Below are positions 4,097 to 57,057 of a stretch of DNA of 57,935 nucleotides, piece after piece. The DNA comes from an uncultured Planctomycetales bacterium (GTDB taxonomy: Bacteria; Omnitrophota; Gorgyraeia; Zapsychrales; Fredricksoniimonadaceae), in assembly GCA_964520655.1 (NCBI GenBank), contig CAZFNI010000002.1:1-57935 (forward strand), given 5' to 3'. Position 1 is the stretch's first letter. Each line of letters starts with the position of its first letter. The notes beneath the pieces were generated by a model, which searched no databases, was not told the origin of the DNA, and was given only the letters and a program-made list of their open reading frames with translations. A program made the position numbers and the translations under genes.

Positions 4097-4104
4097 CAAC
4101 GCTC

Positions 4105-5191: not shown

Positions 5192-5196
5192 AACCA

Positions 5197-6429
5197 CTAT
5201 CCTTTCTGTAACACCATCACACAATTGATACCGCCTCGTCCGCGGTTAATGATCAATGCATTCTTTATTGGACGTTCCACGGGATGAGCCTTAATGATAT
5301 TGAGATCACATTGAGGGTCAATATTATCCACATTGATCGTCGGAGGAATAACGCCGTGTTCCATTGCCAGCACAGTCGTGATCACATCCAGTACCCCGCA
5401 CGCGCCCAGCATATTACCGTAAATAGATTTAGGCGCCGACACCGGCACCTTTAAGGCATATTGACCAAAAGCTTTTTTAATCGCTTTGACCTCACTGATA
5501 TCGCCGTCTTTCGTGGCCGCACCATCTGCACAAATGTAATCGATATTCTCTGGAGACAGCCCCGCATCCTTTAACGCTAACTCGATCGCCCTAGCCAATT
5601 CTTGCCCATCATTCGCTGGATCAATACGGTTGACCGCATCAGTTGTTGAGGCAACGCCGACGATATTGGCATAGACGTTAGCTTTCCTTTTGTCAACGCG
5701 AGAATGAGGCTCAAGCGTCAATACTCCAGCCCCTTCAGCGATCACTAAACCGTCTCGATCACGATCAAAAGGACGATACGCTTGGGCCGGCCGATCATTC
5801 TGACGACTTAAGACCCCCGATGTATTCGCACACAACAAGGCATACGGCGTCACCGGAGCTTCCATACCGCCGGCTAAAATAAAATCACATTTCCCCCGAT
5901 TGATCGTTTGTGCCGCATAACCGATCGCCATCAAAGAACTGGCCCGGTCAGAGACGATCGTCTTGCTAAAACCCTTGATCCCATAATGGATGGAGATCTG
6001 CCCTTGAGGAGCCGCTGGGAACCATGCAGATGCCATAAAGGGACTAACCCCCTCGCGTCCCTCCAAATACATATCACGCAGCTCCGTCTCCGCGTACAAC
6101 CAGCCGCCTAATGCATTGCCCATGAAAATACCGACACGTTTTAGATCTTCCTGGGATAGATTGATCTTAGCATCTTCCAAACACATTTCGGAAGCCACAA
6201 GGGCCATGTGCGAGAATAGGTCGATCTTCTTTAAAAGTCTTGAGGAAACATTACTGTACGCATCCAGCTCTTTAACGTGCCCGGCGATACGGGAAGGATA
6301 AAGCGAGGCATCAAAACGCTCTATTTTCTCTACCGCGCTTCGTCCTGATTTAATATTTGCCCAGAAAACACGTTTATCAATGCCACTAGGAGATATAACA
6401 CCTAAACCTGTGATCGCGATCGGTTGCAT
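5197..6429 (-). CDS. Ketosynthase beta / chain-length-factor-like subunit (catalytically inactive KS homologue)
   Basis: 410 aa, KS fold, collinear with KSalpha. VSDRASSLMA replaces STGCTAGTDS (no Cys). TDAVNRID replaces CNAYHMTD, and CADGAAT replaces SAHGSST (no His). It starts 4 nt after the KSalpha stop. Confidence 0.85.
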   Translation of the reverse strand: MQPIAITGLGVISPSGIDKRVFWANIKSGRSAVEKIERFDASLYPSRIAGHVKELDAYSNVSSRLLKKIDLFSHMALVASEMCLEDAKINLSQEDLKRVGIFMGNALGGWLYAETELRDMYLEGREGVSPFMASAWFPAAPQGQISIHYGIKGFSKTIVSDRASSLMAIGYAAQTINRGKCDFILAGGMEAPVTPYALLCANTSGVLSRQNDRPAQAYRPFDRDRDGLVIAEGAGVLTLEPHSRVDKRKANVYANIVGVASTTDAVNRIDPANDGQELARAIELALKDAGLSPENIDYICADGAATKDGDISEVKAIKKAFGQYALKVPVSAPKSIYGNMLGACGVLDVITTVLAMEHGVIPPTINVDNIDPQCDLNIIKAHPVERPIKNALIINRGRGGINCVMVLQKG

Positions 6430-6433
6430 AAAT

Positions 6434-7699
6434 TTAACCCTTATATCGTTTTAAGACCATCGCGGAATGTATTCCTGAAAAACCGCTCGATGTCTTTAAA
6501 ATACAGTTAACTTTTTTTGATAACGCTTGATTCGGGATATAATTAAGATCACACAATGGATCCGGCTCCTCCTGATTGATCGTCGGCGGCAAAATATTCC
6601 GCTCAAACATCAAGGAACTCAATGCCAACTCAATACCATTGGCCCCTGCCAAAGGATGACCGATCATGGATTTGACCGATGAGATAGGGATATTATAGGC
6701 TTGCTTGCCCAGAGCCATTTTATAGGCACTGGTTTCGAACACATCGTTCTGACGCGTTGATGATCCGTGCGCGCTGATATAATCGATCTCTTCCGCCTTG
6801 ATCCCAGCATCATCCATGGCTAGCGTAATGCTGTCCGCCATAGCATCACCTTCAGGCGGTAGGTCTGTCATATGATACGCATTGCAGGTCGTGCCAAAGC
6901 CAACCACTTCACAATAAATGCGCGCCCCGCGTTTTAAGGCATGCTCTAATTCTTCGCAGATCAAGATCCCTGCCCCTTCTGAGATCACAAATCCATTGCG
7001 TTTATTATCAAAGGGCCTGCTGGCTTTGGCAGGTTCGTCATTGTGAACAGAAAGCACATTGACTGTATCGAATGCACCAAAAGTGATCGGCGTGATCGGC
7101 GCTTCCGAAGCTCCACACACCATCACATCCGCGTCACCGTCTGCGATCGTCTCGAAGGCAAAACCAACTGAATCCGTTCCCGCCGTACAGCCCGTTGATA
7201 TGGTATTACAGACCGCTTTCAGTCCATATTTGGCCGATATCTCTGAGGAAGGCGTATTAAACATCGCCGCATCATACAAATCTGGCCGTACGATCGCTGG
7301 ATTAATGGGATTTTTACCGCTATCCGTCACCAACGCAAATTCTTCTTCCATGTATTTTGTGCCGCAGATCGCGTTCGCCAGCGAAACTCCCATTCGTTTA
7401 AGATCCACTTGCTGCAAATTAAGTCTCGAATCTTCCAAGGCCATGCGCGCAGCGACCATGGCGAACTGAACGTATCGATCCATGCGCATCGCCTCTTCAA
7501 AGGTCAAGCCTAAAGCAATGGGATCAAAATCAGAAACTTGAGCAGCGATCTTTGTATTAAAGATCGAGACATCAAACTCTGTGACCCTCCGTATAGCACT
7601 GACTCCTTTGATCATCGCGGAGAAACAGGCATCATTGCCAATACCGTTAGGCGCGATGATCCCAACCCCAGTAACCACAACCCGTCGCTTTTTTTGCAT
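6434..7699 (-). CDS. Type II PKS ketosynthase alpha
   Basis: 421 aa. Has the active-site ISTGCTAGTDSV (type II PKS-style STGC), plus the AYHMT and AHGSST histidines and GFSGIHSAMV near the C-terminus. Confidence 0.9.
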   Translation of the reverse strand: MQKKRRVVVTGVGIIAPNGIGNDACFSAMIKGVSAIRRVTEFDVSIFNTKIAAQVSDFDPIALGLTFEEAMRMDRYVQFAMVAARMALEDSRLNLQQVDLKRMGVSLANAICGTKYMEEEFALVTDSGKNPINPAIVRPDLYDAAMFNTPSSEISAKYGLKAVCNTISTGCTAGTDSVGFAFETIADGDADVMVCGASEAPITPITFGAFDTVNVLSVHNDEPAKASRPFDNKRNGFVISEGAGILICEELEHALKRGARIYCEVVGFGTTCNAYHMTDLPPEGDAMADSITLAMDDAGIKAEEIDYISAHGSSTRQNDVFETSAYKMALGKQAYNIPISSVKSMIGHPLAGANGIELALSSLMFERNILPPTINQEEPDPLCDLNYIPNQALSKKVNCILKTSSGFSGIHSAMVLKRYKG

Positions 7700-7718: not shown

Positions 7719-8150
7719 TTATCCTCTGATCGTCTCGTCCACAAGATTGTTATGACTGGCGATCACGACCCATTTATCACCGGATTTTTTCCAAGTCATC
7801 GTGTAGCGACGGATAACGCGTTTACCGCCTTCGCTGTTGATCTCAACCGTAAAAATGAAATATTGCAGGATAGCGATATCCCCGTGCAATTTGATCTGTA
7901 TAGGACGCAGTTCACAGATCGCGATGTTCGTCGACTTTGTCCAAAAACCAACCCATTTCCCCAACCAAGGCTTATCGACCGGCAAAGGACTTTCATGCCC
8001 GTAGCCGATCATGTCTGGATGGATATATTCCAGGAATTGTTCCACCCGTTTATTGATCAAATGATCCCAATGGGTCTCTAAACATCCCCAAATTTCTTTT
8101 TCTGTCTTTCCCCAATGTTCCGGCGTCCAAGATGCTAAATTCGAACTCAT
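7719..8150 (-). CDS. NTF2-like (SnoaL/DUF4440-type) protein, candidate polyketide cyclase
   Basis: 143 aa. Its size and alpha+beta pattern (…LEYIHPDMIGYG…AILQYFIFTV…YTMTWKKSGDKWVVIASHNN) are typical of the NTF2-like superfamily. It overlaps the next gene by 4 nt. Confidence 0.55.
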   Translation of the reverse strand: MSSNLASWTPEHWGKTEKEIWGCLETHWDHLINKRVEQFLEYIHPDMIGYGHESPLPVDKPWLGKWVGFWTKSTNIAICELRPIQIKLHGDIAILQYFIFTVEINSEGGKRVIRRYTMTWKKSGDKWVVIASHNNLVDETIRG

Positions 8151-9157
8151 ACGGATATCTCCTTCAGGTTAAAGGCTTCTTTCACTTGTACCAGACTAAA
8201 ATATTTACCACTGCGCTCAACCTCATGAACCATCGCCAGCATCTTAGTGTTAAGTGGTGCTGGTACTTTGATATGGGCAGCGACCTGAACAACTTCGCCA
8301 TTGATAAAATCGATCTCACTAGCGCGTCCGCGCATAATACTTTGAAGGATCGATCCATAAAGCGGCTCTTTGCTTAATCCCGTCAGTGTTTTATGCATAA
8401 TACCGGCCGCCTGTTCAAGCGGCATCTGTGCCAAGCCAATGATACGTTCTTTAGTAAAGTTCGGCATATCCTCAAGCTCGATCTTTGCCTCTTTAATGAC
8501 CATCAATCCTTCCTTTAAAAGATGAATACTTAATCGGCACATGTCCATATCCGTAAAAGTTTCTTGCATTGAACGCCCCAGCAGCGCCGGGATACAATTA
8601 TTGAAATTCACAAAGAGCTTCAAATATTTAGCCCCCATGATGTTAGGAGAAACAACGACATTGAATGCTTTATCCAAGATCTTTGCGGTTTCATGCACTG
8701 TTGGATCAGACAATGAAAAAGGCCTTCCCAGTATCCAATCGCCGTCGAAATTAAACATGATCTCGCCAGGATTGACGTATGTAGCCCCGAACATTACGAT
8801 CGAGGACATTTGTTTGGACTTATCATAATGGCAGCTGAGAATATTATCCGCCTGTACGCCATTCTGGGTTGTCAACACCAGACCACTTTCTAAGAATTCA
8901 TTATTCCACTGGTACGCCGCTTCCAGATCCTGTGTCTTTGTTGAAAAAATAACCAGATCATAGGACTTATCCAATTTGGGTCGCACGTTAAGCCGGAAAT
9001 TCTCTCTTCCCCGGACGCCGTCAATGGTCAATCCCTTCTCTTTGATCACAGCACACTGATCAGGTTTAGCAATGAGGGTCACATCGCATCCGGCTTTCGT
9101 CAGATACGCGGCCACAACACCACCAATAGCCCCAGCTCCAATGACCGCGATCGTCAT
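8147..9157 (-). CDS. Ketopantoate reductase (ApbA/PanE) family oxidoreductase
   Basis: The N-terminal IAVIGAGAIGGVVAAYL Rossmann motif and the C-terminal SILQSIMRGRASEIDFINGEVV block are characteristic of the ApbA_C domain. Confidence 0.75.
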   Translation of the reverse strand: MTIAVIGAGAIGGVVAAYLTKAGCDVTLIAKPDQCAVIKEKGLTIDGVRGRENFRLNVRPKLDKSYDLVIFSTKTQDLEAAYQWNNEFLESGLVLTTQNGVQADNILSCHYDKSKQMSSIVMFGATYVNPGEIMFNFDGDWILGRPFSLSDPTVHETAKILDKAFNVVVSPNIMGAKYLKLFVNFNNCIPALLGRSMQETFTDMDMCRLSIHLLKEGLMVIKEAKIELEDMPNFTKERIIGLAQMPLEQAAGIMHKTLTGLSKEPLYGSILQSIMRGRASEIDFINGEVVQVAAHIKVPAPLNTKMLAMVHEVERSGKYFSLVQVKEAFNLKEISV

Positions 9158-9432
9158 TTCATGGCTCCGTATTTCTTATAATCAAAACCAGCCTCGTCCA
9201 TGATCCTCACCATCAGCGAATAGAATGCCTTAGGCACTTCAGTTGTGAACGCATGCACAATATCACATTCTTCAACCTGGGATGACCCTCGTCCCTTGGC
9301 GTTTTGTTCCGCTTTTTTATTGACCACTTCTTTGGCTAAGCTTCTGTGGAATATCGGGATCAGCTGAAGCATTCTGTTATATTTTGCCAGCGCTCCGCTT
9401 TCCCAATTCATTGTTGTCACGACCATCGTCAT
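9154..9432 (-). CDS. Small PCP_red-like domain protein (partner of BchE-type radical SAM enzymes)
   Basis: WESGALAKYNRMLQLIPIFHRSLAKEVVNKKAEQNAKGRG resembles the W..eA...l..iP.f.R...r...E..A domain (protochlorophyllide reductase 57 kD subunit-type). The start at 9432 (MTMVV) avoids overlapping the radical SAM gene. Confidence 0.45.
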   Translation of the reverse strand: MTMVVTTMNWESGALAKYNRMLQLIPIFHRSLAKEVVNKKAEQNAKGRGSSQVEECDIVHAFTTEVPKAFYSLMVRIMDEAGFDYKKYGAMK

Positions 9433-9433
9433 A

Positions 9434-10906
9434 TTATTTCCCCGCCTCAACCCGAGAATTAGCTTCCCACTTGGCGATATTGTTCATAAAATCCTTCACG
9501 CACAATTTCACCTTGATATTGTAATTGCTTTCCATGATGCGGTGAATGCGTTCAGGTTTGGAATAATATTCCCGCATGCACCAGGCGCCCAAACGACCCA
9601 CTTCTTCAATGCTTAAAAAATCCGTCGGAACGACCGGATGCTGAAAATCCCACTGGCGCAGATCGATCTTTTCCGGATCAAACCACCCTTGCTTGATCGC
9701 ATATCGCCAATCCGGTGAATTGGGGACAGGCGTCATATAATCCAGCGCAAATATATCCGGGTCGATCTCATCCGCCACGCGCAGCCGTTCTTTGATCTTG
9801 GCTTCCGTATCTTCTTTTAACCCGATCAAAACCGTACCAACGCTGCCGATATCATTCTCCCGCAGGATATTGACCGTTTTCTTGATCTGAGCGATCGTCA
9901 CCCCTTTGCCTGTTTTGTTAAGCGTCATATCATCCTCAACCTCGACACCCGTCAGGGCTAAAAATAGCCCCGCCTTTTTCATCAGCGGCAAAATGTCATG
10001 CTGTGAGATCCACTGGTCAGCACGCCCCAAACAGACCCATTCGATCTTATTACCGCGCTTTAATTTCTCTTCACAGAATTCAATCATGGCCTCAGTATCG
10101 GTATTAAAGGCATCATCTTGGAACACCACGGTTGTAATGCCGTATTTTTTCTCCAATATTTCCAGTTCATCAACAATACGCTTGCCTTTAAGCCCGCGCC
10201 ATGAAGTAAAGTCTTTCGTCGCTGTTCGGCTGTCATAAAGAGCCCATTCATAACAGAAATGGCATTTTCCTGGACAGCCGCGGGAAGTCATTAATTCCGC
10301 GAACGGCTTCCAATAGGTATGCCCGACATATTTTTCCATCGGGAAAAGATCATACGCCGGCATTGGCAGCACATTTAAGTCTGGGATCAAGTCCCGGTGG
10401 GGGCCAACAACGATCGTGCCGCTTTTATCCCGTGAAACCAGCCCTGGGATATCCCGTTCTGGTTTTGGATTAACCGCCTTTAAATTAATGATCAGTTCCT
10501 CCAGCGTCAATTCCGCTTCGCCCAGCATGATATAATCAATGGTCGGATTTAACCGCATTTGACGTTCATAATCTCCAGAATACCAGAGACCTCCAGCGAC
10601 AGTCTTGACATGCGGCATCGCTTCTTTGATCACACGTAAGCCCTCATTAAAATACCAGATGACCGCGGCCCCGCATGTCGAATGCAGTAATTCACCTACA
10701 AACACGATATCTGGAGCGCTTTTCTTGACATACGCCAACATGGCGTCCCAATCCATTTCAAGCGCTCTGGAATCCAGCGCATCAACAGCCCCCAATCCTT
10801 TCTCGCGCACATAGGCCGCCAGCTGGGCATGCATTTGATTAGCAGCTTTGTGATTCCCGTGAGAATCCCAGGCTTTCAGCGGCGGTGTCAAAAAGAGCAC
10901 TTTCAT
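9434..10906 (-). CDS. Cobalamin-binding-domain radical SAM enzyme (class B / BchE-like)
   Basis: 490 aa. An N-terminal Rossmann-like B12-binding region (MKVLFLTPP...) is followed by SRGCPGKCHFCYEW, the CxxxCxxC radical SAM cluster motif. GAGGAG lies 4 nt upstream of the start. Confidence 0.85.
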   Translation of the reverse strand: MKVLFLTPPLKAWDSHGNHKAANQMHAQLAAYVREKGLGAVDALDSRALEMDWDAMLAYVKKSAPDIVFVGELLHSTCGAAVIWYFNEGLRVIKEAMPHVKTVAGGLWYSGDYERQMRLNPTIDYIMLGEAELTLEELIINLKAVNPKPERDIPGLVSRDKSGTIVVGPHRDLIPDLNVLPMPAYDLFPMEKYVGHTYWKPFAELMTSRGCPGKCHFCYEWALYDSRTATKDFTSWRGLKGKRIVDELEILEKKYGITTVVFQDDAFNTDTEAMIEFCEEKLKRGNKIEWVCLGRADQWISQHDILPLMKKAGLFLALTGVEVEDDMTLNKTGKGVTIAQIKKTVNILRENDIGSVGTVLIGLKEDTEAKIKERLRVADEIDPDIFALDYMTPVPNSPDWRYAIKQGWFDPEKIDLRQWDFQHPVVPTDFLSIEEVGRLGAWCMREYYSKPERIHRIMESNYNIKVKLCVKDFMNNIAKWEANSRVEAGK

Positions 10907-10986: not shown

Positions 10987-12480
10987 TCAGAACCAGGACG
11001 TGACAAGCGACCTTCCGCCCGGCGTCTGGTCTGTGACAATATTTTTTACTTGTGTATATTCATTTAAGCCGTCAATTCCCAATTCCCGTCCAAAGCCGCT
11101 TTTTTTACAACCACCAAATGGCGCTTCATTCAAGAAAACACCGTATGTATTGATCCAAACCGTACCGCAGCGCAACCGTTTGGCCAGGCTATTAGCTTTC
11201 ACCAGATCTTTGCTCCAGATCATCGCGGCTAATCCATAAGGACTATCATTAGCAATGGCAAGCGCCTGTTCAATCGATGAAAATGGGATCACGCACAGAA
11301 CCGGCCCAAAGATCTCTTCCTGGGCAACGCGCATATTATTTCGGACGTCGATCAAGATCGAGGGCTCAATATAGGCCCCATTATCAAACCCAGAAGGAAT
11401 TTTTCCGCCACACGCTAATTTTGCCCCTTCTTTGATCCCCTGCTGGACAAACTTCAACACATGATCACGCTGCTCTTGGCTGACAAGTGGTCCAAATTCC
11501 GTCTCATAACTATAGGCCGGACCGATCTTTAAACTTCGCGCCCGCTCAACCAACTTATTGACAAACTCATGATAGATCTTTTCCTCAACCAGAAGACGGG
11601 ATCCTGCTGTACACATCTGTCCCTGGTTTAAAAAGATCGCTGATAAACTCCCCCCAACAGCCGCATCCATATCACAATCGGCGAACACAAGATTAGGCGA
11701 CTTTCCGCCAAGTTCCATGATTGAACGCTTGACGCCTTTTGCAGCAGCAGCCATTACCTTCATCCCCGTAGTCGTTCCGCCAGTAAAGGAGATCATATCC
11801 AAATCTGGATGGCTGACGATCAAATCCCCTATCCCTTCATGCGCAGAAGAAATGATATTGACCACACCTTTAGGCAAACCAATTGATGCGATCAACCCGG
11901 CAAAATACATGATCGAGGTATTTGCCAAACGAGATGTTTTTAGTAAGACGGTATTTCCCGCCAGCAGCGCAGGTGCCAATTTCCAAGCTGTCATGATCAA
12001 CGGGTAATTCCAGGGAATGATCATACCGACCACACCAACAGGTTCGCGCTCAATGCGGCTTGATACAGGAGCAGAAACGTCAAGCATTTGGTGATCAAGG
12101 CTCCCTGACAAGCGGCCGAAATACTCGAATGTATCCGCGCAAGTCGGCACATCAATGAAAGTGGCATGCTTGATCGTTTTTCCGCCAGCAAGACATTCCA
12201 GCTCAGCAAGTTCCTTGGCATGCTCACGGACCAAAGCGCCAATCTTAAGCAAGAACTCCCCGCGCTCTTTGACCGTTAACCTCGGCCAAGAACCATGGTC
12301 AAAAGCCAAACGAGCCGCATTAATGGCGATCTGAGTATCTACATCATCAGCGTCTGCCATCCTGGCAAATACCTCCCCATTCGACGGGTTAATGGCATCA
12401 TAATATTTCCCCGCCAGTGGAGGCGTCATCCTGCCTTCTAATAAAAGTTCAAACTGCTTGATGTGAGTTTTGGTATTCAT
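10987..12480 (-). CDS. NAD(P)-dependent aldehyde dehydrogenase
   Basis: 497 aa. Has ELGGKSPNLVF (catalytic Glu), GQMCTAGSRLLV (catalytic Cys) and EEIFGPV. Confidence 0.9.
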   Translation of the reverse strand: MNTKTHIKQFELLLEGRMTPPLAGKYYDAINPSNGEVFARMADADDVDTQIAINAARLAFDHGSWPRLTVKERGEFLLKIGALVREHAKELAELECLAGGKTIKHATFIDVPTCADTFEYFGRLSGSLDHQMLDVSAPVSSRIEREPVGVVGMIIPWNYPLIMTAWKLAPALLAGNTVLLKTSRLANTSIMYFAGLIASIGLPKGVVNIISSAHEGIGDLIVSHPDLDMISFTGGTTTGMKVMAAAAKGVKRSIMELGGKSPNLVFADCDMDAAVGGSLSAIFLNQGQMCTAGSRLLVEEKIYHEFVNKLVERARSLKIGPAYSYETEFGPLVSQEQRDHVLKFVQQGIKEGAKLACGGKIPSGFDNGAYIEPSILIDVRNNMRVAQEEIFGPVLCVIPFSSIEQALAIANDSPYGLAAMIWSKDLVKANSLAKRLRCGTVWINTYGVFLNEAPFGGCKKSGFGRELGIDGLNEYTQVKNIVTDQTPGGRSLVTSWF

Positions 12481-13542
12481 TTATTCCACCGGAACCTGTG
12501 CCCACAACTGAAAAATACGGCTGCAAGGCGCATACCATTTAGAGATGCGCGCGAAATCCCCACGCAAATTCATCTTTTTCTGCGTTGTCGCCACAAAAGG
12601 ATCGATCTGGCGGTTAAAGACCGCGCGCCAGATCTCTTCGCTGGCAGTAATCAAGAATTCTGCGTTTACGTCTTTTCCTGTTTCGATGATCTGACCATTG
12701 CGGAATTTGAAACTATGAACAACTCCCGTTTCCTGCAGGCACACAGCCAGATCCATATTCATGGCCGTCTTTGTTCCTAATTCTTGCATTTGGGGATCAT
12801 TGTTAACAATGTGAACGATTTCTTTTATCTGTTCATTAGAAAACAACTTGTATTTCTTGCCGCCAACGGGTGACGCGGGATCAGTTTGTTTTGACCGCAG
12901 CGTCAGGGGGTCAATGGCTTCATCTCCTGCTACCCCACGGGGGGATGGGTGACGCGAGGACGAAACAAACTGTCCCGCGGCAGGACCCGTTCCTGCTCTA
13001 TAATGAATATCCACCAAATCCATCTTGACCTGCTCTTCTAACTCCTGTATCAATACGAACGCATCGAAAATATTTTTACTAACAGCCACAACACCATGGT
13101 TGCGAAGAACCACAATATTATTGCTTTTTAGTTCAGCCAACACAGGCTCAACATCTGTCACGGATGGCGTCGATTGCTCAACAGACTTAACCTCTCCCAA
13201 ATAAAATCTAGCCTCAAATGTTTTCGGTGTAAAAACTGTGTTACTTAGAAAGAACCCATTGGTATAGGTAGGATGCGTGTGAACGATAGCAGCAACGTCA
13301 GGAAAATTCTTATAAACTTCCGTATGCATCAACTTCTCGGAGGAAGCCTTGCCCTCGCCCACCACCTCACCAGCGATCTTCATAAACAAAACATCTTCCG
13401 GTTTTAAATAACCCAAACATGTCCCCGTCGCGGTGATCAACAGTGTTTCCTGGTCTATGCGGGCGCTGATATTCCCGTTATACCCAGTAACAAGGCCTTT
13501 GTCCCACAACAATTTCCCTATCTCAATGATCTTATTTTTCAT
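12481..13542 (-). CDS. Class II aldolase/adducin-fold enzyme fused to a C-terminal SCP2-like lipid-binding domain
   Basis: The N-terminal domain has GNISARI, MHTEVY...AIVHTHPTY and LRNHGVVAV (metal-ligand His pattern of FucA/MtnB/Ald2-type enzymes). A Pro/Gly/Ser-rich, GC-rich linker of about 50 aa follows. The C-terminal ~110 aa end in KKMNLRGDFARISKWYAP, which is SCP2-like. The ATG at 13542 forms an ATGA overlap with the upstream stop. Confidence 0.75.
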   Translation of the reverse strand: MKNKIIEIGKLLWDKGLVTGYNGNISARIDQETLLITATGTCLGYLKPEDVLFMKIAGEVVGEGKASSEKLMHTEVYKNFPDVAAIVHTHPTYTNGFFLSNTVFTPKTFEARFYLGEVKSVEQSTPSVTDVEPVLAELKSNNIVVLRNHGVVAVSKNIFDAFVLIQELEEQVKMDLVDIHYRAGTGPAAGQFVSSSRHPSPRGVAGDEAIDPLTLRSKQTDPASPVGGKKYKLFSNEQIKEIVHIVNNDPQMQELGTKTAMNMDLAVCLQETGVVHSFKFRNGQIIETGKDVNAEFLITASEEIWRAVFNRQIDPFVATTQKKMNLRGDFARISKWYAPCSRIFQLWAQVPVE

Positions 13543-14012
13543 TTTAGATATTTCCCTGGAACCCATTCTACTAAAGGCGCATAACCTTTAGTCCCTAGCG
13601 GGGCGATCTGGACATTCTCAAAACGTGTTATGCTCTTTGGATCCCCTAAGAATCGTGATCTAAGCTTGCTCTGGATCAATTGCACCGGCACCCGATGTTT
13701 CCTGGCTAGAACAGCATAGATCAATGCGCCGGTATCACATAATGCACCGCTCTTATCCGCGTATTGACATGCGAGCACCAAACGATGAACAAGTCCCTTG
13801 GCAAACAAGAACCCAGCCATGTTATCTGATATAACCGTCGGCGTTAGACCGGACTTCAAAAAGAACTTAACGTTCTCTTTTGCTGATTCCAACGAAGGTC
13901 TTCCCTCTGTTAGAAATACATGTTTGCCCTTAGGGGCTTTACACGCTTTCCCCTGATCTGAGGCGATCACGCCGCAATACAAAATGATCGACGACGGTTT
14001 ATAATCCAGCAT
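13539..14012 (-). CDS. Half-length eIF-2B/MtnA-family paralogue (C-terminal Rossmann-like half only)
   Basis: 157 aa. LTEGRPSLESAK...GLTPTVISDNMAGFL mirrors ETRPYMQGSKLT...LVTLVPDNAVGIL of the neighbouring full-length isomerase. The N-terminal domain is absent and the GxDR..ANGD block has diverged (CQYADKSGALCDTG). Confidence 0.6.
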   Translation of the reverse strand: MLDYKPSSIILYCGVIASDQGKACKAPKGKHVFLTEGRPSLESAKENVKFFLKSGLTPTVISDNMAGFLFAKGLVHRLVLACQYADKSGALCDTGALIYAVLARKHRVPVQLIQSKLRSRFLGDPKSITRFENVQIAPLGTKGYAPLVEWVPGKYLK

Positions 14013-14955
14013 GAATCGGTATCGCTTTCGTTATCAATTGATGCGGGACAACATCAAACCCAGGATAAAATCCCCGGACATTCTTCCCATACAAATGTTT
14101 TCCTTGAAATTCCACTATTTCCGACTCTTCACGCAATTCAATAGGCATATCTCGACCTGTTTTAACGCCCTTTGACGGCTGTGTCAGCACAATAACGGGA
14201 ACACCAAATTCCTTTGCCAGGACAGAAATTTGATAGCTGCCCACCTTATTGGCAATATCACCGTTAGCGGCACTGCGGTCTGACCCGATGATCACTTTAT
14301 TCACGCGCCCTTCCGATAATAATATCCCAACGGCATTATCGGGAACCAGCGTCACCAAAGCTTTTACCTGAGTTAATTCCCACACCGTTAATTTGGAACC
14401 CTGCATATACGGCCTGGTCTCCGTGGCATAGAATTTAACATTCCTGCCTTCTTTGAGCGCGATCGCCGCCGCCATAGCCAGCTCACCGCTGACATTGCAA
14501 TGCGTTAATATCACATCGCCATCCTTCATATTGGCCGCTATTTGAGCTACTCTCTCTAATCGGCGGCCGCGAATTCCTGCTAAGAACCCACCAACCGTTT
14601 TCACCACTGTGCTTCGCACATCACCGCCATTTGTTGCCGCTTTATGGGCTGCGCCCACAATGATCCCGGTCACTTCAGCGAATGGAAAAGTCGGACGGGA
14701 ATGATTCAATTGATGCGCGACTTTTTGTAAATGAGCGAGTAGATCCCCCTGATGATCAAGCTCCAATAAAAATGTATTAAGAACGACCAGGAACTGACCG
14801 AATGCACGGGTTTTCATCGAACGGATCACGGCTACCGCACCCCGGACATTCTTGACGGGGATATATTTTAATCGTTTAGGAACAAGTGTTTCATCAAGCA
14901 CATATAGCACCTGATCCTTAACATACGCTGGCCAAAATAATGGCGACTCGTACAT
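13999..14955 (-). CDS. MtnA-type (eIF-2B family) 5-methylthioribose/5-deoxyribose-1-phosphate isomerase
   Basis: 318 aa. Has ILTHCNVSG (catalytic Cys block), ATETRPYMQG, GSDRSAANGDIANKVGSY (catalytic Asp block) and DVVPHQLIT near the C-terminus. Confidence 0.8.
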   Translation of the reverse strand: MYESPLFWPAYVKDQVLYVLDETLVPKRLKYIPVKNVRGAVAVIRSMKTRAFGQFLVVLNTFLLELDHQGDLLAHLQKVAHQLNHSRPTFPFAEVTGIIVGAAHKAATNGGDVRSTVVKTVGGFLAGIRGRRLERVAQIAANMKDGDVILTHCNVSGELAMAAAIALKEGRNVKFYATETRPYMQGSKLTVWELTQVKALVTLVPDNAVGILLSEGRVNKVIIGSDRSAANGDIANKVGSYQISVLAKEFGVPVIVLTQPSKGVKTGRDMPIELREESEIVEFQGKHLYGKNVRGFYPGFDVVPHQLITKAIPIHAGL

Positions 14956-14957
14956 GC

Positions 14958-15722
14958 TTATTTACCTTCTCTGGCTTTGATCAGATTTAATGCAATATTG
15001 ATCAAAGACCCTTCAGCCATGTAATAATCCGGATTTAAGAAACCCATTTGGCCTGTCATTAAATTATCTGATACAGCAAGGATTGAAACAGCTGGTATCT
15101 TATAGATCTGTGCCAATGTTAAGAACACCGAGCTGACCATGTCCACCGCGACCGCCCCCTGGTCAACAACCCCATTGACCACTTCTTTGGTTTCGCGCAG
15201 GATCGCATCAGTACTCCATACTTTTCCGGTATGCACATTTAAACCAGATGCTTTGGCAGCTGTGATCAAGGCATTGTTCAATGACTCATCGGGCTTGGTG
15301 ATAAAATCTTTCTCCACATAATAAGGACTGACACCGTCGCCGCGCACAGCTCCCGTCGCGATAACCAGATCGCCGATATTGATATTCTTTGATAATGAAC
15401 CGCAGGAACCGATGCGGATCAAACACTGAGCCTGTGCATTACACAATATCTCAGTCGTGATAGCTGTATCTGCCGCAAAACGACCTCCATTGATCGCAGT
15501 GACACCGATCCCCTGATAAGTACCGGTGAACATCGTATATTCCATGAACGCAAAATTCTTAACAGGATTGTCGATCTTCTTGATCAAGCTATCAAGACGT
15601 TCCTTGGGTCCCGGGACAATGGCATATTTGCCGATATCTTTAGGACGTAACTGCACCATGTTCATCAGGTCTTTGCCCGTTAAATGCACATCCCTGGTCA
15701 TGCGCTCTGCCGTGTTTGACAT
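14958..15722 (-). CDS. PNP/UDP-family nucleoside phosphorylase (candidate MTA/5'-deoxyadenosine phosphorylase)
   Basis: 254 aa. AIVPGPKERL, RIGSCGSL and GDLVIATGAVRGDGVSPYY resemble hexameric PNP/uridine-phosphorylase-type enzymes. Substrate specificity is not readable from the sequence. Confidence 0.75.
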   Translation of the reverse strand: MSNTAERMTRDVHLTGKDLMNMVQLRPKDIGKYAIVPGPKERLDSLIKKIDNPVKNFAFMEYTMFTGTYQGIGVTAINGGRFAADTAITTEILCNAQAQCLIRIGSCGSLSKNINIGDLVIATGAVRGDGVSPYYVEKDFITKPDESLNNALITAAKASGLNVHTGKVWSTDAILRETKEVVNGVVDQGAVAVDMVSSVFLTLAQIYKIPAVSILAVSDNLMTGQMGFLNPDYYMAEGSLINIALNLIKAREGK

Positions 15723-15734
15723 AAATATCCTTTC

Positions 15735-17243
15735 TTAAATAAGTGCTTCCGACTTTAAGATCTCTTTATCGATCTTCCCTGTCCGGTTCTTCGGTAAATT
15801 GGTCCGGATCTCAATTGTTTGCGGGACCTTAAAATTCGCCAAATGTTCTTTAACAAAATATTTCAGTTGTAAACCATCCACGTCCGCATCTTCTTTCAGG
15901 ACAACAAAAGCCTTAACAGCTTCGCCGCGCATCGTATCTGGAACACCGATCACCGCTGCCTCTAAAACGTCTTTATGCTTGCAAAGAGCAGCCTCAACCT
16001 CAGGAGCATAGACGATCTGCCCGGCCACTTTGATCATTTCTTTCTTGCGCCCCGCAATATACAAAAATCCCTCGCTATCGAATCGTCCCAGGTCGCCTGT
16101 ATGGAAATATCCATTGCGTTTGGCAGCCTTTGTCGCCTCAGAATCCTTATAATATTCCTGCATCACAACCCAACCTTTAATGACGATCTCGCCGATCTCT
16201 CCAGCAGCAAGTGGCTTATCCTGATCATCAACGATCAAGATCTCACAATTTGGTGCCGGCTTGCCTACACTCTCGATCTTATCGCTGTTAAGCGGCGTTA
16301 CCGTATTGGGCGGACATGTTTCCGTCATCCCCCAACCATTTAACAATCGGGCATTAGGGCAATAGCGGTGGAAACGTTCAAGGATCTCTTTCGATGACGG
16401 AGCCCCAAAGACCACTACCCATCGCAAACTACTGAGGTCAAACTGATCCAAATGCTTCAGTGTCAATAGCGCCGTATACATCGGAGGCACAATATGAAAA
16501 CATGTGACTTTATAGGTAACAACATTCTTTAGGAATTCCAATGGATGAAAACGATCCATCAATACCAGTGTGATGCCAAAAATAATACAATTCTGGATAT
16601 AAATAAACCCGCCAATATGGCTTAAAGGAATCGCGCATAATTTGACATCTTTATCCGTCAGATCCACAAAATGGTGCATCGCTTCCGGAGACCCATCCAA
16701 ATGCTTATAATTAAGCACTATGCCTTTGGGGGCACCCGTTGTACCCGATGTGTACATCAACAGGGCCGGATCGTTCTCCTGGAGATCAACAGGTGAAAAG
16801 CCATTGTGAGCTGCCACATCTTGAAAAGGCACCTCCCATGAGACCCCAAGAGCATCGCCTAAAAAAACAACTTTTTTCAAAGAAGCAACGGCTGCCTTGA
16901 TCGCGCTAACATCAATATCCTGTTTATATTGCATGACGAGGATCTCAGCTTCGCCATGACTAAGACAAGATATTAATTCATCATTTTTAAGCATGTAATC
17001 TAACGGAATAACGGTAGCGCCGCAGCAAAATGAGGATAAATACGTCAACACATACTCAGGAGTATTGGGTAAATAAACGGCAATGCGGCTGGATTTTTTG
17101 ATATTTAAAGAACGCAGGCCTTGAGCAAGTGATAATACCTGGGAATGGAGGTCAGAGAAAGACACCACTCTGTCTTTAAAAATAATAGCGTTCTTATTGC
17201 CAAAACGCTTAGCTGCCGATCCAAGAAGATTATATATATTCAT
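15735..17243 (-). CDS. AMP-dependent acyl-CoA/acyl-ACP synthetase (adenylate-forming ligase)
   Basis: 502 aa. Has YTSGTTGAPKGI (A3 motif), GWGMTE, YFHTGDLG and GRKKEMIKVAG. It is the first gene of the PKS operon. Confidence 0.9.
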   Translation of the reverse strand: MNIYNLLGSAAKRFGNKNAIIFKDRVVSFSDLHSQVLSLAQGLRSLNIKKSSRIAVYLPNTPEYVLTYLSSFCCGATVIPLDYMLKNDELISCLSHGEAEILVMQYKQDIDVSAIKAAVASLKKVVFLGDALGVSWEVPFQDVAAHNGFSPVDLQENDPALLMYTSGTTGAPKGIVLNYKHLDGSPEAMHHFVDLTDKDVKLCAIPLSHIGGFIYIQNCIIFGITLVLMDRFHPLEFLKNVVTYKVTCFHIVPPMYTALLTLKHLDQFDLSSLRWVVVFGAPSSKEILERFHRYCPNARLLNGWGMTETCPPNTVTPLNSDKIESVGKPAPNCEILIVDDQDKPLAAGEIGEIVIKGWVVMQEYYKDSEATKAAKRNGYFHTGDLGRFDSEGFLYIAGRKKEMIKVAGQIVYAPEVEAALCKHKDVLEAAVIGVPDTMRGEAVKAFVVLKEDADVDGLQLKYFVKEHLANFKVPQTIEIRTNLPKNRTGKIDKEILKSEALI

Positions 17244-17288: not shown

Positions 17289-17316
17289 ATTTTATTAGAT
17301 AAGCGGCTTTAGTCAA
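17289..17316 (-). promoter_or_regulatory. Candidate sigma70 promoter for the PKS operon
   Basis: On the minus strand there is TTGACT (17316-17311), a 16-nt spacer and TAAAAT (17294-17289), about 45 nt upstream of the ligase ATG at 17243. Confidence 0.4.
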
Positions 17317-17354: not shown

Positions 17355-17867
17355 TCAAAGCCTTTCGATCAAATCAGTGGTGGAGCGGATCTCTGCATGT
17401 ATTAATTCGAGGCTGTGCTGATGGATCAGGAAAGATTGAGCCGAGTCTTGCTGCGCTCTATCCCTTAATACCGACACTTCTCTAGCGATCTTTTTTAAGA
17501 ACGCTATCCGCGCCTTTAGACGACGTTTGGCAATCGGTTTATTCGTCAAATGGATAAAATATAACGAGAGATCGATCTGGAAAAATGGACGTTCAACAGA
17601 AGAAAAACTTTCCTGCATCAACAGATCGAATTTCTTTCTGCCTTTATCAGTGATACGATACACATACTTCTCAGGGAATCTACCCTGCCGGCCCGTTTCC
17701 TTGGCAACAAGGCCGTCCTTTTCCATTTTCATCAAAGGGTAATAGATCGATTTGATCTTAAGACCGGCACTTTGCTTAAGATCATCATGGATCTGCCGCT
17801 TGATCTCATAGCCATGCTTTGGACGGTCAACGAGTAATCCAAGAAAAAGTAATTCATTCTCGATCAT
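17355..17867 (-). CDS. PadR-family transcriptional regulator
   Basis: 170 aa. LLVDRPKHGYEIKRQI...IYYPLMKMEKDGLV is the PadR winged-helix signature. Confidence 0.85.
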   Translation of the reverse strand: MIENELLFLGLLVDRPKHGYEIKRQIHDDLKQSAGLKIKSIYYPLMKMEKDGLVAKETGRQGRFPEKYVYRITDKGRKKFDLLMQESFSSVERPFFQIDLSLYFIHLTNKPIAKRRLKARIAFLKKIAREVSVLRDRAQQDSAQSFLIHQHSLELIHAEIRSTTDLIERL

Positions 17868-57049: not shown

Positions 57050-57057
57050 ATTTTTTC

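What the first reader, a model, noticed from the sequence alone, without database searches (positions are those of the whole stretch)
10987..15722. Complete-looking DHAP-shunt (5'-deoxyadenosine/MTA salvage) module hard-wired into the PKS operon
Seen, as consecutive genes:
- A PNP/UDP-family nucleoside phosphorylase (14958-15722).
- A full-length MtnA/eIF-2B-type isomerase with LTHCN and GSDRSAANGD blocks (13999-14955).
- A half-length paralogue of that isomerase.
- A class II aldolase-fold enzyme with the HTHP...NHG ligand pattern (12481-13542).
- An NAD-aldehyde dehydrogenase (10987-12480).

Known: phosphorylase (or nucleosidase + kinase) + MtnA-type isomerase + class II aldolase (Ald2) constitutes the 'DHAP shunt'. 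It converts 5'-deoxyadenosine and 5'-methylthioadenosine to DHAP plus acetaldehyde or (2-methylthio)acetaldehyde. It has been described in Rhodospirillum rubrum and extraintestinal pathogenic E. coli, with a related 5-deoxyribose route in Bacillus thuringiensis. 5'-deoxyadenosine is the inhibitory by-product of radical SAM enzymes.

Inferred: here the shunt sits immediately upstream of, and is co-transcribed with, a cobalamin radical SAM gene inside a biosynthetic cluster. The ALDH is positioned to dispose of the aldehyde. It looks like a dedicated by-product-clearance module for a BGC. I am not aware of this arrangement having been described.
Basis: partly seen in the sequence, partly recalled or inferred. 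Interest (0 to 1): 0.72.

Follow-up and report, generated by a model that had tools for sequence, protein, structure and literature searches.

The report
Nucleoside-cleaving module wired into polyketide operon
An uncultivated Omnitrophota bacterium carries a five-enzyme route that should break an adenosine-type nucleoside into a sugar phosphate and a small acid, and this route is always joined to the same polyketide gene cluster, so it more likely feeds that cluster than merely clears radical-SAM waste.

Summary
On the minus strand, one tightly packed operon encodes acyl-AMP ligase, a DeoD/Udp-type purine nucleoside phosphorylase, an MtnA-type isomerase, a half-length non-catalytic isomerase paralogue, a class II aldolase, an aldehyde dehydrogenase (ALDH), a B12 radical SAM enzyme and a minimal type II PKS.

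New findings:
- The aldolase is fused to an SCP2 lipid-binding domain.
- The phosphorylase lacks two canonical residues (DeoD Arg43 to Met, Glu181 to Val) in all 66 relatives.
- The chain-length factor (CLF) has Arg where Gln or Cys normally sits.

The arrangement is syntenic in at least 80 Omnitrophota species genomes and in further metagenome loci. The PKS never appears without the module, nor the module without the PKS, in this clade.

The radical SAM gene is missing from 11 of 96 clusters, through at least 7 independent changes, while the module stays. This weakens the reading of dedicated clearance for that enzyme.

Phosphorylase, isomerase, aldolase and ALDH form the enzyme series of fluoroacetate biosynthesis (5'-X-5'-deoxyadenosine to X-acetate). 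With the ligase, the best reading is supply of a SAM-derived X-acetyl primer. X is unknown and nothing is biochemically shown.

It is a new variant of a known kind.

The parts
17355..17867 (-). PadR-family regulator, first gene of the conserved block
   Evidence: PF03551, E 7e-14. Upstream of the ligase wherever both neighbours are readable (45/45).
17289..17316 (-). Promoter-like site (TTGACT-16-TAAAAT) between PadR and the ligase gene
   Evidence: Consensus scan, 10 of 12 matches. Pattern match only, not evidence of function.
15735..17243 (-). Acyl-AMP (CoA/ACP) ligase of the medium-chain/aryl type; proposed activator of the acid made by the module
   Evidence: PF00501 and PF13193. Best NCBIfam match PRK06187, 432 bits against a 476 cut-off. 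Nearest solved relatives are fatty-acyl, oxalyl, feruloyl, MenE, 4CL and anthranilate ligases. Invariant GWGMTET motif. Present in 60/60 loci with enough upstream DNA.
14958..15722 (-). Hexameric NP-I (DeoD/Udp/SsMTAP-type) purine nucleoside phosphorylase, atypical subfamily
   Evidence: PF01048. Nearest PDB relatives are Udp, S. solfataricus MTA phosphorylase and Bacillus PNP. Aligned with E. coli DeoD and Udp: His4, Arg24, Arg87, Ser90 and Asp204 equivalents are kept; Arg43 is Met and Glu181 is Val (EME becomes DMV). Both changes are invariant in 66 relatives. There is a 9-residue insertion after His13.
13999..14955 (-). MtnA-type aldose-1-phosphate to ketose-1-phosphate isomerase
   Evidence: PF01008. 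MtnA models score 191-197 bits against cut-offs of 271-279; the R15P isomerase model scores 126 against 314. Catalytic Cys (THCN) and Asp (GSDRSAANGD) align to MtnA structures and are invariant.
13539..14012 (-). Half-length IF-2B paralogue (C-terminal domain only), probably a non-catalytic partner of the isomerase
   Evidence: Aligns to residues 149-308 of the full isomerase, with the catalytic Asp replaced by Gln. Present in 74/74 loci but the least conserved gene, median 46% identity. Also found next to divergent aldolase-SCP2 genes (L172, L173, L176).
12996..13566 (-). Class II (metal-dependent, DHAP-forming) aldolase domain
   Evidence: PF00596. All FucA functional residues are kept: N29, T43, G44, S71, S72, E73, H92, H94, Y113, H155. 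AF2 model matches FucA, YgbL, B. thuringiensis DrdA (6btd/6btg) and aq_1979.
12481..12858 (-). SCP2 (sterol-carrier-protein-2-like) lipid-binding domain fused to the aldolase
   Evidence: PF02036 scores 27 bits in homologues and 17 bits in the window copy. AF2 pLDDT 92; Foldseek TM 0.83-0.86 to T. thermophilus SCP2, and also matches UbiJ-SCP2. Only 72 clusters hold this domain type in 1.84 billion representatives; those of about 320-340 aa carry it at the C-terminal end, as here.
10987..12480 (-). NAD(P)-dependent aldehyde dehydrogenase; start codon abuts the aldolase stop
   Evidence: PF00171, E 6e-166. Catalytic ELGGKSP Glu and MCTAG Cys conserved. Present in 57/57 and 60/60 bracketed loci.
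9434..10906 (-). B12-binding radical SAM enzyme (BchE/HpnJ-like), optional member of the cluster
   Evidence: PF02310 and PF04055. BchE model scores 180 bits against a 481 cut-off; HpnJ scores 130 against 578. Absent in 11/96 clusters.
9154..9450 (-). Small conserved protein (weak DUF2621 match)
   Evidence: Present in 56/56 bracketed loci.
8147..9157 (-). Ketopantoate-reductase-like (ApbA) oxidoreductase
   Evidence: PF02558 and PF08546. Present in 54/54 loci. Also next to a divergent aldolase-SCP2 gene in L168.
7719..8150 (-). DUF4440/NTF2-like protein (subset of clusters)
   Evidence: Present in 17/54 loci.
6434..7699 (-). Ketosynthase (KS-alpha) with active-site Cys
   Evidence: PF00109 and PF02801. 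TGCTAG is invariant in 51 sequences.
5197..6429 (-). Chain-length-factor-like KS-beta with Arg at the Cys/Gln position
   Evidence: DRASSL in 44/44 true CLFs.
4907..5224 (-). Acyl carrier protein
   Evidence: PF00550.
4105..4950 (-). Cyclase (PF04199)
   Evidence: Median 87% identity across loci.
336..3612 (-). Downstream tailoring and export genes: SRPBCC polyketide cyclase (3163-3612), MFS transporter (2031-3191), SDR (1245-2030), amidohydrolase_2 (336-1244)
   Evidence: Found in the same order in many loci.

Best explanation
The six genes from 17243 to 10987 form a precursor-supply branch of a conserved Omnitrophota type II polyketide pathway.

Proposed steps:
1. The atypical purine nucleoside phosphorylase removes the base, most likely adenine, from a 5'-substituted 5'-deoxyadenosine. 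This gives a 5-X-5-deoxyribose 1-phosphate.
2. The MtnA-type isomerase, probably working with its non-catalytic half-length partner, converts it to the ribulose 1-phosphate.
3. The class II aldolase-SCP2 cleaves it into DHAP and X-CH2-CHO.
4. The translationally coupled ALDH pulls this unfavourable cleavage forward by making X-CH2-COOH.
5. The acyl-AMP ligase that opens the operon activates that acid as the primer for KS/CLF/ACP. The CLF lacks the Gln associated with decarboxylative acetate priming.

Candidates for X are CH3S (from MTA, giving methylthioacetate), H (from 5'-deoxyadenosine, giving acetate) or a larger hydrophobic group.

The B12 radical SAM enzyme is an optional tailoring enzyme, not the reason the module exists.

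Shown: gene content, conserved catalytic residues, operon packing, and two-way obligate linkage. Inferred: the substrate, the direction of flux, and the hand-over from ALDH to ligase to PKS.
For: 1. Catalytic equipment for each step is conserved.
   - Phosphorylase.
   - Isomerase.
   - Aldolase.
   - ALDH.
2. The operon is tightly packed, with no terminator-like site before the radical SAM and PKS genes.
3. Linkage holds in both directions.
   - KS is present in 44/44 aldolase-anchored loci with at least 8 kb downstream, and the ligase in 60/60 with at least 4.5 kb upstream.
   - Every KS-anchored metagenome locus with enough upstream DNA has the module.
4. The radical SAM gene is lost in 11/96 clusters, with at least 7 independent changes, and the module is kept.
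5. Phosphorylase, isomerase, aldolase and ALDH together are the known route from 5'-fluoro-5'-deoxyadenosine to fluoroacetate (PMC3999930; parallel noted in PMC6079011).
6. Aldol cleavage is thermodynamically unfavourable, with K about 1e-4 (PMC6079011). An ALDH abutting the aldolase therefore makes sense as a pull.
7. The CLF has Arg instead of Gln or Cys in 44/44 sequences. Acetate priming normally comes from KS/CLF malonyl decarboxylation, and ligase priming has precedent in EncN and AuaEII (PMC12664062).
8. The ligase groups with medium-chain and aryl acid ligases. From my own knowledge, its GWGMTET motif has Gly where acetyl-CoA synthetases place the pocket-closing Trp.
Against: - No substrate is identified and no biochemistry exists.
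- If X = H the product is acetate, which a cell does not need a special route to make.
- The ligase could activate an unrelated acid. For example, the ApbA-like reductase could make a 2-hydroxy acid.
- The aldolase-SCP2 core also occurs in divergent relatives without a PKS within 6-10 kb (L168, L171, L174, L175). The module's ancestral role is therefore probably general sugar-phosphate or nucleoside salvage.
- The radical SAM gene is still present in about 89% of clusters. It sits next to the module in a different gene order in L172, which hints at some functional tie.
- The Arg43-to-Met and Glu181-to-Val changes leave the phosphorylase's real substrate, and even its nucleophile, uncertain.
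Confidence: 0.4

Rival explanations
1. One reading: a DHAP shunt placed in the cluster to clear inhibitory 5'-deoxyadenosine (and MTA or SAH-type by-products) made by the cobalamin radical SAM enzyme. ALDH, and possibly the ligase, recycle acetaldehyde to acetyl-CoA.
For: - Homologous phosphorylase/isomerase/aldolase trios are proven 5'-dAdo and MTA disposal routes (PMC6079011; PMC10986504).
- The radical SAM gene is adjacent in about 89% of clusters.
- It also sits next to half-IF2B and aldolase-SCP2 in a rearranged order in L172.
- A possible radical SAM-aldolase-SCP2 fusion exists in L169.
Against: - 11 of 96 clusters lack the radical SAM gene but keep the whole module, through at least 7 independent changes.
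- Flux from one tailoring enzyme is small compared with the cell's other radical SAM enzymes.
- In E. coli the shunt did not contribute to detoxification; base removal sufficed.
- The ligase is not of the acetyl-CoA synthetase type.
- The L169 fusion lies on a 2.3x-coverage contig with both domains truncated and may be chimeric.
Confidence: 0.2
2. A housekeeping nucleoside or SAM-by-product salvage operon (nucleoside to DHAP plus acyl-CoA) that merely travels with the PKS genes in Omnitrophota and has no chemical link to the polyketide.
For: - Divergent aldolase-SCP2 genes sit beside PNP, IF-2B, ALDH, DeoC or Zn-ADH genes, with no PKS in view (L171, L175, L176, L170).
- Module genes evolve faster (median 46-67% identity) than the PKS core (72-87%).
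Against: - Two-way obligate linkage, overlapping reading frames and a shared PadR-led operon hold across the about 100 loci that could be assessed.
- A housekeeping route would not be expected to sit under the promoter of a specialised pathway in every species.
Confidence: 0.12
3. Trimming of an adenosylated pathway intermediate, following the logic of HpnH/HpnG in hopanoids or MqnE/MqnB in futalosine. A radical SAM enzyme adds the 5'-deoxyadenosyl radical to a hydrophobic acceptor. The module then removes adenine and three ribose carbons as DHAP. This leaves a two-carbon carboxymethyl extension, which the ligase re-activates.
For: - The SCP2 lipid-binding domain on the aldolase.
- An invariant Met/Leu-rich insertion next to the His that contacts the ribose 5' position in related phosphorylases.
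- An extra isomerase subunit.
- Weak similarity of the phosphorylase to HpnG and futalosine hydrolase models.
- Recurrent neighbourhood with a radical SAM gene.
Against: - The cluster's radical SAM enzyme is BchE/HpnJ-like with a B12 domain, unlike HpnH or MqnE, and it is dispensable in 11/96 clusters.
- HpnG and futalosine hydrolase models are far below cut-off: 49 bits against 187, and 25 against 125.
- A divergent aldolase-SCP2 sits with DeoC and ADH, which suggests small aldehydes.
Confidence: 0.13
4. The three reversible enzymes run in the synthetic direction: aldehyde plus DHAP to ketose-1-P, then aldose-1-P, then nucleoside. This would build a C5'-extended purine nucleoside carrying a polyketide-derived tail.
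For: Equilibria of aldolase and purine phosphorylase favour synthesis (the phosphorylase equilibrium is from my own knowledge). The SCP2 domain could hold a hydrophobic aldehyde.
Against: The ALDH, which is effectively irreversible (my own knowledge) and translationally coupled to the aldolase, would destroy the aldehyde substrate. No thioester reductase is present to release an aldehyde from the ACP.
Confidence: 0.05

Closest known systems
DHAP shunt / 5-deoxyribose disposal (MtnP or MtnN+MtnK, MtnA/DrdI, Ald2/DrdA) of Rhodospirillum rubrum, ExPEC E. coli, Bacillus thuringiensis and Clostridium phytofermentans
   Same: It has the same three reaction types in the same order, encoded as adjacent genes. 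The isomerase is MtnA-like with conserved Cys and Asp. The aldolase is a class II enzyme structurally close to DrdA and FucA.
   Different: - The phosphorylase is the hexameric DeoD/Udp/SsMTAP type with Arg43 to Met and Glu181 to Val, not MtnP.
- There is an extra half-length isomerase paralogue.
- The aldolase is fused to SCP2.
- ALDH and an acyl-AMP ligase are added.
- The whole set is embedded in a type II PKS operon.
- No protein reaches an equivalog cut-off.
[quoted passage not shown]
   Same: It is the only known pathway using the full series phosphorylase, MtnA-type isomerase, class II aldolase and aldehyde dehydrogenase to turn a 5'-substituted 5'-deoxyadenosine into a substituted acetic acid for secondary metabolism (PMC3999930).
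   Different: No fluorinase or chlorinase (SAM halide/hydroxide adenosyltransferase family) was seen in the window or in the conserved cluster. Here all four genes are contiguous and followed by a ligase and PKS. In the actinomycetes the aldolase and dehydrogenase are scattered.
Ligase-primed type II PKSs (enterocin EncN, aurachin AuaEII/AuaE)
   Same: A stand-alone adenylate-forming enzyme in the cluster is the likely entry point for a non-acetate primer (PMC12664062). AuaEII is among the solved relatives of the window ligase.
   Different: In those systems the primer comes from aromatic amino-acid or shikimate metabolism, not from a nucleoside. The Omnitrophota CLF carries Arg at the active-site position.
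Adenosylhopane (HpnH/HpnG) and futalosine (MqnE/MqnB) pathways
   Same: A PNP_UDP_1-family enzyme removes the base from a 5'-C-substituted adenosine inside a lipid or quinone biosynthetic pathway that contains radical SAM enzymes.
   Different: Model scores are far below cut-offs and there is no HpnH- or MqnE-type enzyme. Those pathways keep the ribose carbons, whereas this module would discard three of them as DHAP.

Membership tests
DHAP shunt (MtnP/MtnA/Ald2 or DrdK/DrdI/DrdA) | 5'-deoxynucleoside phosphorylase of the MtnP (trimeric MTAP) type, or nucleosidase plus kinase | tested here: not met
   No MtnP/MTAP model appears among the 18 NCBIfam hits. The best are uridine phosphorylase (111 bits) and DeoD (94 bits), all below cut-off. 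The nearest enzyme with MTA activity is the hexameric S. solfataricus MTAP (77 bits). No kinase is in the cluster.
DHAP shunt (MtnP/MtnA/Ald2 or DrdK/DrdI/DrdA) | MtnA-type isomerase with catalytic Cys and Asp | tested here: met
   THCN and GSDRSAANGD align with the catalytic Cys and Asp of T. maritima and B. subtilis MtnA and are invariant in 69 relatives. The score is below the equivalog cut-off: 191 against 279.
DHAP shunt (MtnP/MtnA/Ald2 or DrdK/DrdI/DrdA) | Class II metal-dependent aldolase releasing DHAP | tested here: met
   All FucA metal ligands, the catalytic Glu and Tyr, and the phosphate-site residues are conserved. The fold matches FucA and DrdA.
DHAP shunt (MtnP/MtnA/Ald2 or DrdK/DrdI/DrdA) | Activity on 5'-dAdo/MTA, 5-deoxy- or 5-methylthio-ribulose-1-P | not testable with these tools
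   Needs enzyme assays.
MtnB dehydratase / canonical methionine salvage | Aldolase-fold protein belongs to MtnB, and mtnC/D (or W/X) are present | tested here: not met
   MtnB models score 68-73 bits over residues 7-120 only, against cut-offs of 137-226. Aldolase models match full length at 109-118 bits. No mtnC/D/W/X/K or pfs lies in the 58 kb window. The rest of the genome could not be searched.
Fluorometabolite-type pathway | SAM-dependent fluorinase or chlorinase that makes the 5'-halo-5'-deoxyadenosine | tested here: not met
   No such domain was seen among the window ORFs of 150 aa or more plus six shorter cluster ORFs. None appeared among the extra ORFs inspected in related clusters (by inspection of sequences only).
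Fluorometabolite-type pathway | Phosphorylase, isomerase, aldolase and aldehyde dehydrogenase acting in series | tested here: met
   All four are encoded contiguously with conserved catalytic residues. Acting in series is inferred.
Archaeal pentose-bisphosphate pathway (AMP phosphorylase, R15P isomerase) | Ribose-1,5-bisphosphate isomerase (e2b2) type IF-2B protein | tested here: not met
   TIGR00511 scores 126 bits against a 314 cut-off. MtnA models score higher.
Hopanoid HpnG / futalosine MqnB nucleosidases | Membership of the HpnG or futalosine-hydrolase equivalog, with a partner adenosyl-adding radical SAM enzyme (HpnH/MqnE) | tested here: not met
   HpnG scores 49 bits against 187 and fut_nucase 25 against 125. 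The cluster's radical SAM enzyme best matches BchE and HpnJ, with no HpnH or MqnE match.
Type II polyketide synthase | KS with active Cys, CLF without Cys, discrete ACP, cyclases | tested here: met
Type II polyketide synthase | CLF active-site Gln (decarboxylative acetate priming) | tested here: not met
   Arg at that position in 44/44 CLFs.
SCP2 sterol-carrier domain | SCP2 alpha/beta fold | tested here: met
   AF2 pLDDT 92. Foldseek TM 0.83-0.86, E 5e-9 to 2cx7 and 1wfr. Pfam PF02036 is above the gathering score in two homologues.

The most novel reading that the evidence does not exclude
SAM-derived adenosine is used as a building block rather than treated as waste. The module converts a 5'-substituted 5'-deoxyadenosine into a substituted acetyl primer for an anaerobe's type II PKS. 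The substrate could be MTA or, more boldly, a hydrophobic compound adenosylated by a radical SAM enzyme and held by the SCP2 domain. This would be a previously undescribed way to make a polyketide starter unit, or to add a two-carbon carboxymethyl group, and it would be conserved across a candidate phylum.
Probability: 0.3. Interest if true: 0.85.

Novelty: new variant of a known kind. Interest (0 to 1): 0.62.

Why it matters
If the module feeds the PKS, it would be the first link between the DHAP shunt and polyketide priming, and the first fluoroacetate-like logic seen outside the halogenating actinomycetes. It would show that SAM by-products can be deliberate building blocks.

It also defines three things:
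- A phylum-wide, strongly conserved and wholly uncharacterised aromatic polyketide pathway in Omnitrophota, bacteria known only from metagenomes.
- An unusual aldolase-SCP2 fusion.
- A phosphorylase subfamily that lacks two residues treated as canonical in hexameric (DeoD/Udp-type) nucleoside phosphorylases.

If instead it is salvage, it still extends the shunt by two steps (ALDH and ligase) and gives a natural test of whether biosynthetic clusters carry their own by-product handling.

Tried and rejected
- **Dedicated clearance for the adjacent radical SAM enzyme.** Down-weighted after finding 11/96 clusters without that gene.
- **Canonical methionine salvage or MtnB.** Rejected on HMM scores and on the absence of other mtn genes in the window (and the Pfam scans).
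- **Fluorinase- or chlorinase-fed pathway.** No such gene is present.
- **Archaeal AMP/R15P pathway.** The isomerase scores much lower on the e2b2 model.
- **NovR/CloR/TqaM-like aromatic tailoring role for the aldolase-fold domain.** Rejected because the full sugar-phosphate binding site of FucA is conserved.
- **Accessory ORFs in related clusters as the source of the nucleoside.** They are mostly small membrane proteins and nucleotidyltransferase- and HEPN-like insertions (named by reading the sequences, not by HMM), plus an extra SRPBCC-like protein.
- **Terminator between ALDH and the radical SAM gene.** None found.
- **Sequence search of the SCP2 domain against PDB.** This gave nothing, so the fold was established by prediction and Foldseek instead.
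- **Radical SAM-aldolase-SCP2 single ORF (L169).** Considered as Rosetta-stone evidence but set aside as possibly chimeric.
- **Not possible here.** I could not obtain bona fide Ald2, DrdA or MtnB sequences for a proper phylogeny.

Full report
**What is in the sequence**

All genes of interest lie on the minus strand. In the order of transcription they are:

| Gene | Coordinates |
|---|---|
| PadR regulator | 17867-17355 |
| Acyl-AMP ligase | 17243-15735 |
| PNP_UDP_1 phosphorylase | 15722-14958 |
| IF-2B/MtnA-like isomerase | 14955-13999 |
| 157-aa IF-2B fragment | 14012-13539 |
| Class II aldolase (353-361 aa) | 13566/13542-12481 |
| Aldehyde dehydrogenase (ALDH) | 12480-10987 |
| B12-binding radical SAM enzyme | 10906-9434 |
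| Small protein | 9450-9154 |
| ApbA/ketopantoate-reductase-like oxidoreductase | 9157-8147 |
| DUF4440/NTF2-like protein | 8150-7719 |
| KS | 7699-6434 |
| CLF | 6429-5197 |
| ACP | 5224-4907 |
| PF04199 cyclase | 4950-4105 |
| SRPBCC cyclase, MFS transporter, SDR, amidohydrolase_2 | 3612-336 |

Neighbouring genes overlap or are 0-19 nt apart. The exception is an 80-nt gap between the ALDH and the radical SAM gene, which has no terminator-like hairpin. A promoter-like site lies between PadR and the ligase gene.

It missed the ligase gene that opens the operon and the extra domain on the aldolase.

**Where it comes from and how conserved it is**

Homologues of the aldolase are nearly all from Candidatus Omnitrophota MAGs. 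A scan of one genome per GTDB species found the fusion in 146 genomes, and the 80 loci fetched are all Omnitrophota. Some of these carry the placeholder label 'uncultured Planctomycetales'.

tblastn of every window protein against these loci shows strict synteny. Counting only loci where the flanks allow a decision:

| Gene | Present / assessable |
|---|---|
| Phosphorylase | 64/65 |
| Isomerase | 68/68 |
| Half-length paralogue | 74/74 |
| ALDH | 57/57 |
| Ligase | 60/60 |
| KS | 44/44 |
| Radical SAM | 52/57 |

The reciprocal test used a metagenome scan seeded with the KS. It found no KS locus with enough upstream DNA that lacks the module.

Pooling both sets, the radical SAM gene is cleanly absent from 11 of 96 clusters. 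On an ALDH tree this needs at least 7 changes, with presence as the root state.

The PKS core is more conserved than the module. Median identity to the window is KS 81%, cyclase 87% and radical SAM 82%, against phosphorylase 67%, ligase 63%, isomerase 60%, ALDH 59%, aldolase 57% and half-isomerase 46%.

**The enzymes one by one**

*Phosphorylase.*
- It is not MtnP-like. It belongs to the hexameric DeoD/Udp group, with Udp, S. solfataricus MTA phosphorylase and Bacillus adenosine/purine phosphorylases as the nearest solved relatives.
- Aligned with E. coli DeoD and Udp, it keeps the His that contacts the ribose 5' position, Arg24, Arg87, Ser90 and the purine-protonating Asp204 (VSDN, as in SsMTAP).
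- It has Met for Arg43 and Val for Glu181 (EME becomes DMV), and a 9-residue Met/Leu-rich insertion after the His.
- Both substitutions are invariant in 66 relatives. They recur in a 40%-identical homologue from a different context.
- Retention of two arginines and the serine argues for a phosphorylase rather than a hydrolase. This fits an isomerase that needs a 1-phosphate. That argument is inference.

*Isomerase.* It matches MtnA models best, though below cut-off, and keeps the catalytic Cys and Asp.

*Half-length paralogue.* It corresponds to residues 149-308 of the full enzyme and has Gln in place of the catalytic Asp. I read it as a non-catalytic partner.

*Aldolase domain.*
- It keeps every FucA residue known to bind the metal, the phosphate and the substrate: N29, T43, G44, S71, S72, E73, H92, H94, Y113 and H155. 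The residue roles are from my knowledge of the FucA literature.
- Its predicted fold matches FucA, YgbL, B. thuringiensis DrdA and aq_1979.
- MtnB models match only the N-terminal half and score far below cut-off.

*C-terminal domain of the aldolase.*
- The last 125 residues form an SCP2 domain. Pfam scores are above the gathering threshold in two homologues. The AF2 model has pLDDT 92, with Foldseek TM 0.83-0.86 to bacterial SCP2 and matches to UbiJ-SCP2.
- This domain type is rare: 72 clusters among 1.84 billion representatives. Those of about 320-340 aa carry the domain at the C-terminal end, as in the window protein.

*ALDH.* It keeps its catalytic Glu and Cys.

*Ligase.* It groups with medium-chain, dicarboxylate and aryl acid ligases, including the aurachin primer ligase AuaEII.

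*KS and CLF.* The KS has its active Cys. The CLF has Arg where Cys or Gln normally sits, in 44 of 44 sequences.

**Context of divergent relatives**

Aldolase-SCP2 genes only 30-40% identical to the window protein show these neighbourhoods:

| Locus | Arrangement |
|---|---|
| L176 | IF-2B, half-IF-2B, aldolase-SCP2, ALDH |
| L172 | radical SAM C-terminus, half-IF-2B, aldolase-SCP2 |
| L173 | IF-2B, aldolase-SCP2 |
| L170 | aldolase-SCP2, ALDH, ferredoxin, flavodoxin-like reductase |
| L171 | atypical phosphorylase, aldolase-SCP2 |
| L168 | aldolase-SCP2, small gene, ApbA |
| L175 | aldolase-SCP2, DeoC, Zn-ADH |
| L174, L177 | no related neighbour genes |

L168, L171, L174 and L175 have 6-10 kb of flank on at least one side and no PKS. 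The core of the module is therefore older and wider than its link to the PKS, and it always keeps company with nucleoside, sugar-phosphate or aldehyde enzymes.

One 694-aa ORF joins a truncated radical SAM domain to a truncated aldolase-SCP2 (L169). It sits on a 2.3x-coverage contig, and I do not rely on it.

**What it most likely does**

The chemistry encoded is that of the DHAP shunt (PMC6079011; PMC10986504), extended by an ALDH and a ligase.

The series phosphorylase, isomerase, aldolase and ALDH is the route from 5'-fluoro-5'-deoxyadenosine to fluoroacetate (PMC3999930). In general terms it runs from 5'-X-5'-deoxyadenosine to X-acetate plus DHAP.

Aldol cleavage is unfavourable, with K about 1e-4. 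An ALDH whose start codon abuts the aldolase stop is therefore a sensible pull.

The acid then meets a ligase of a type known to prime type II PKSs (EncN, AuaEII; PMC12664062). The CLF of this system lacks the residue associated with self-priming by malonyl decarboxylation.

Together with the two-way obligate linkage, this makes supply of a primer the best-supported reading (confidence 0.4).

The identity of X is open:
- H would give plain acetate.
- CH3S, from MTA, would give methylthioacetate.
- The SCP2 domain, the hydrophobic insertion in the phosphorylase and the extra isomerase subunit leave room for a bulkier hydrophobic group.

**Rivals**

It is supported by the usual adjacency of the radical SAM gene and by its reappearance next to the module in another gene order (L172). 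It is weakened by repeated loss of that gene with the module retained, by the small flux expected from one tailoring enzyme, and by the E. coli result that the shunt beyond base removal does not detoxify.
- **Unlinked housekeeping salvage operon (0.12).** It fits the PKS-free relatives but not the invariant shared operon.
- **Trimming of an adenosylated intermediate, as in hopanoid or futalosine pathways (0.13).** It fits the SCP2 domain but not the type or the dispensability of the radical SAM enzyme.
- **Running the reversible steps backwards to build a C5'-extended nucleoside (0.05).** It conflicts with the coupled ALDH.

**Novelty**

I found no description of this arrangement. Omnitrophica KS-CLF pairs are only listed in a catalogue (PMC10132072). 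Omnitrophota are among the phyla in which ladderane-type clusters were reported in one survey (PMC9902471); whether those calls include this cluster is not known. Searches combining the DHAP shunt, radical SAM enzymes and gene clusters found only the known salvage papers.

It is a new variant of a known kind: known reactions, new composition and new wiring.

**Limits**

- Nothing here is biochemical.
- No reference Ald2, DrdA or MtnB sequences were available for a phylogeny.
- Whole genomes could not be searched for housekeeping salvage genes.
- The tree used to count radical SAM losses is a rough neighbour-joining tree of one protein.

Noticed in passing
L033, L043, L047, L051, L013, L031, L048, L073, L074, L083 (intergenic gaps of the cluster): Small selfish-looking genes sit at varying positions inside the operon: aldolase|ALDH, ALDH|radical SAM, KS|CLF. 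They include nucleotidyltransferase-like and HEPN-like pairs and a 149-aa nucleotidyltransferase-fold family. They do not break the synteny. The names come from reading the sequences, not from HMM searches.
   Followed up: partly
L035, L037, L038, L043-L049, L051, L054, L058, L059, L062-L064, L070 (between the small gene and ApbA): A recurrent extra protein of about 170 aa, SRPBCC/START-like by eye, occurs in 17 clusters. These are mostly the clade that lacks the DUF4440 gene, which suggests alternative cyclase sets.
   Followed up: partly
L169:590-2674: A single 694-aa ORF combines Radical_SAM_N2, a truncated radical SAM core, a truncated class II aldolase, SCP2 and a histidinol-dehydrogenase tail. 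It lies on a 3.4 kb contig at 2.3x coverage. It is either a real fusion or an assembly chimera.
   Followed up: partly
window 3627-3694: Two hairpins flanked by A and T runs lie between the 141-aa membrane ORF (3707-4132) and the SRPBCC gene (3163-3612). They look like a bidirectional terminator and may mark the end of the main operon.
   Followed up: no
window 4907-5224 and 4105-4950: The ACP reading frame as listed overlaps the cyclase start by 44 nt and begins with TTG. The true ACP start is probably the internal Met (MQTQAELE...). The KS-CLF junction lacks the roughly 90-aa membrane ORF seen there in L003, L014 and L027.
   Followed up: no
window 41300-42262: A second, unrelated radical SAM gene sits inside a glycan/LPS-type region with heptosyltransferase, epimerases, E1 dehydrogenase subunits, a TPP enzyme, methyltransferases and two YfhO-like membrane proteins. 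MoaC lies at 45357-45827. The organism therefore has other sources of 5'-deoxyadenosine.
   Followed up: no
window 55652-57894: Two Proton_antipo_M (NuoM/N or Mrp-type) genes sit at the window edge. This is of interest only because a phylum-wide aromatic polyketide could conceivably be a redox-active quinone. Nothing was tested.
   Followed up: no
L001:1306-6111: One genome (GCA_044225175.1) has a 1601-aa protein with no Pfam domain inserted between PadR and the ligase gene.
   Followed up: no
L037: This is the only cluster that lacks the phosphorylase gene, and it also lacks the radical SAM gene. Two unrelated ORFs are inserted between the aldolase and the ALDH.
   Followed up: partly
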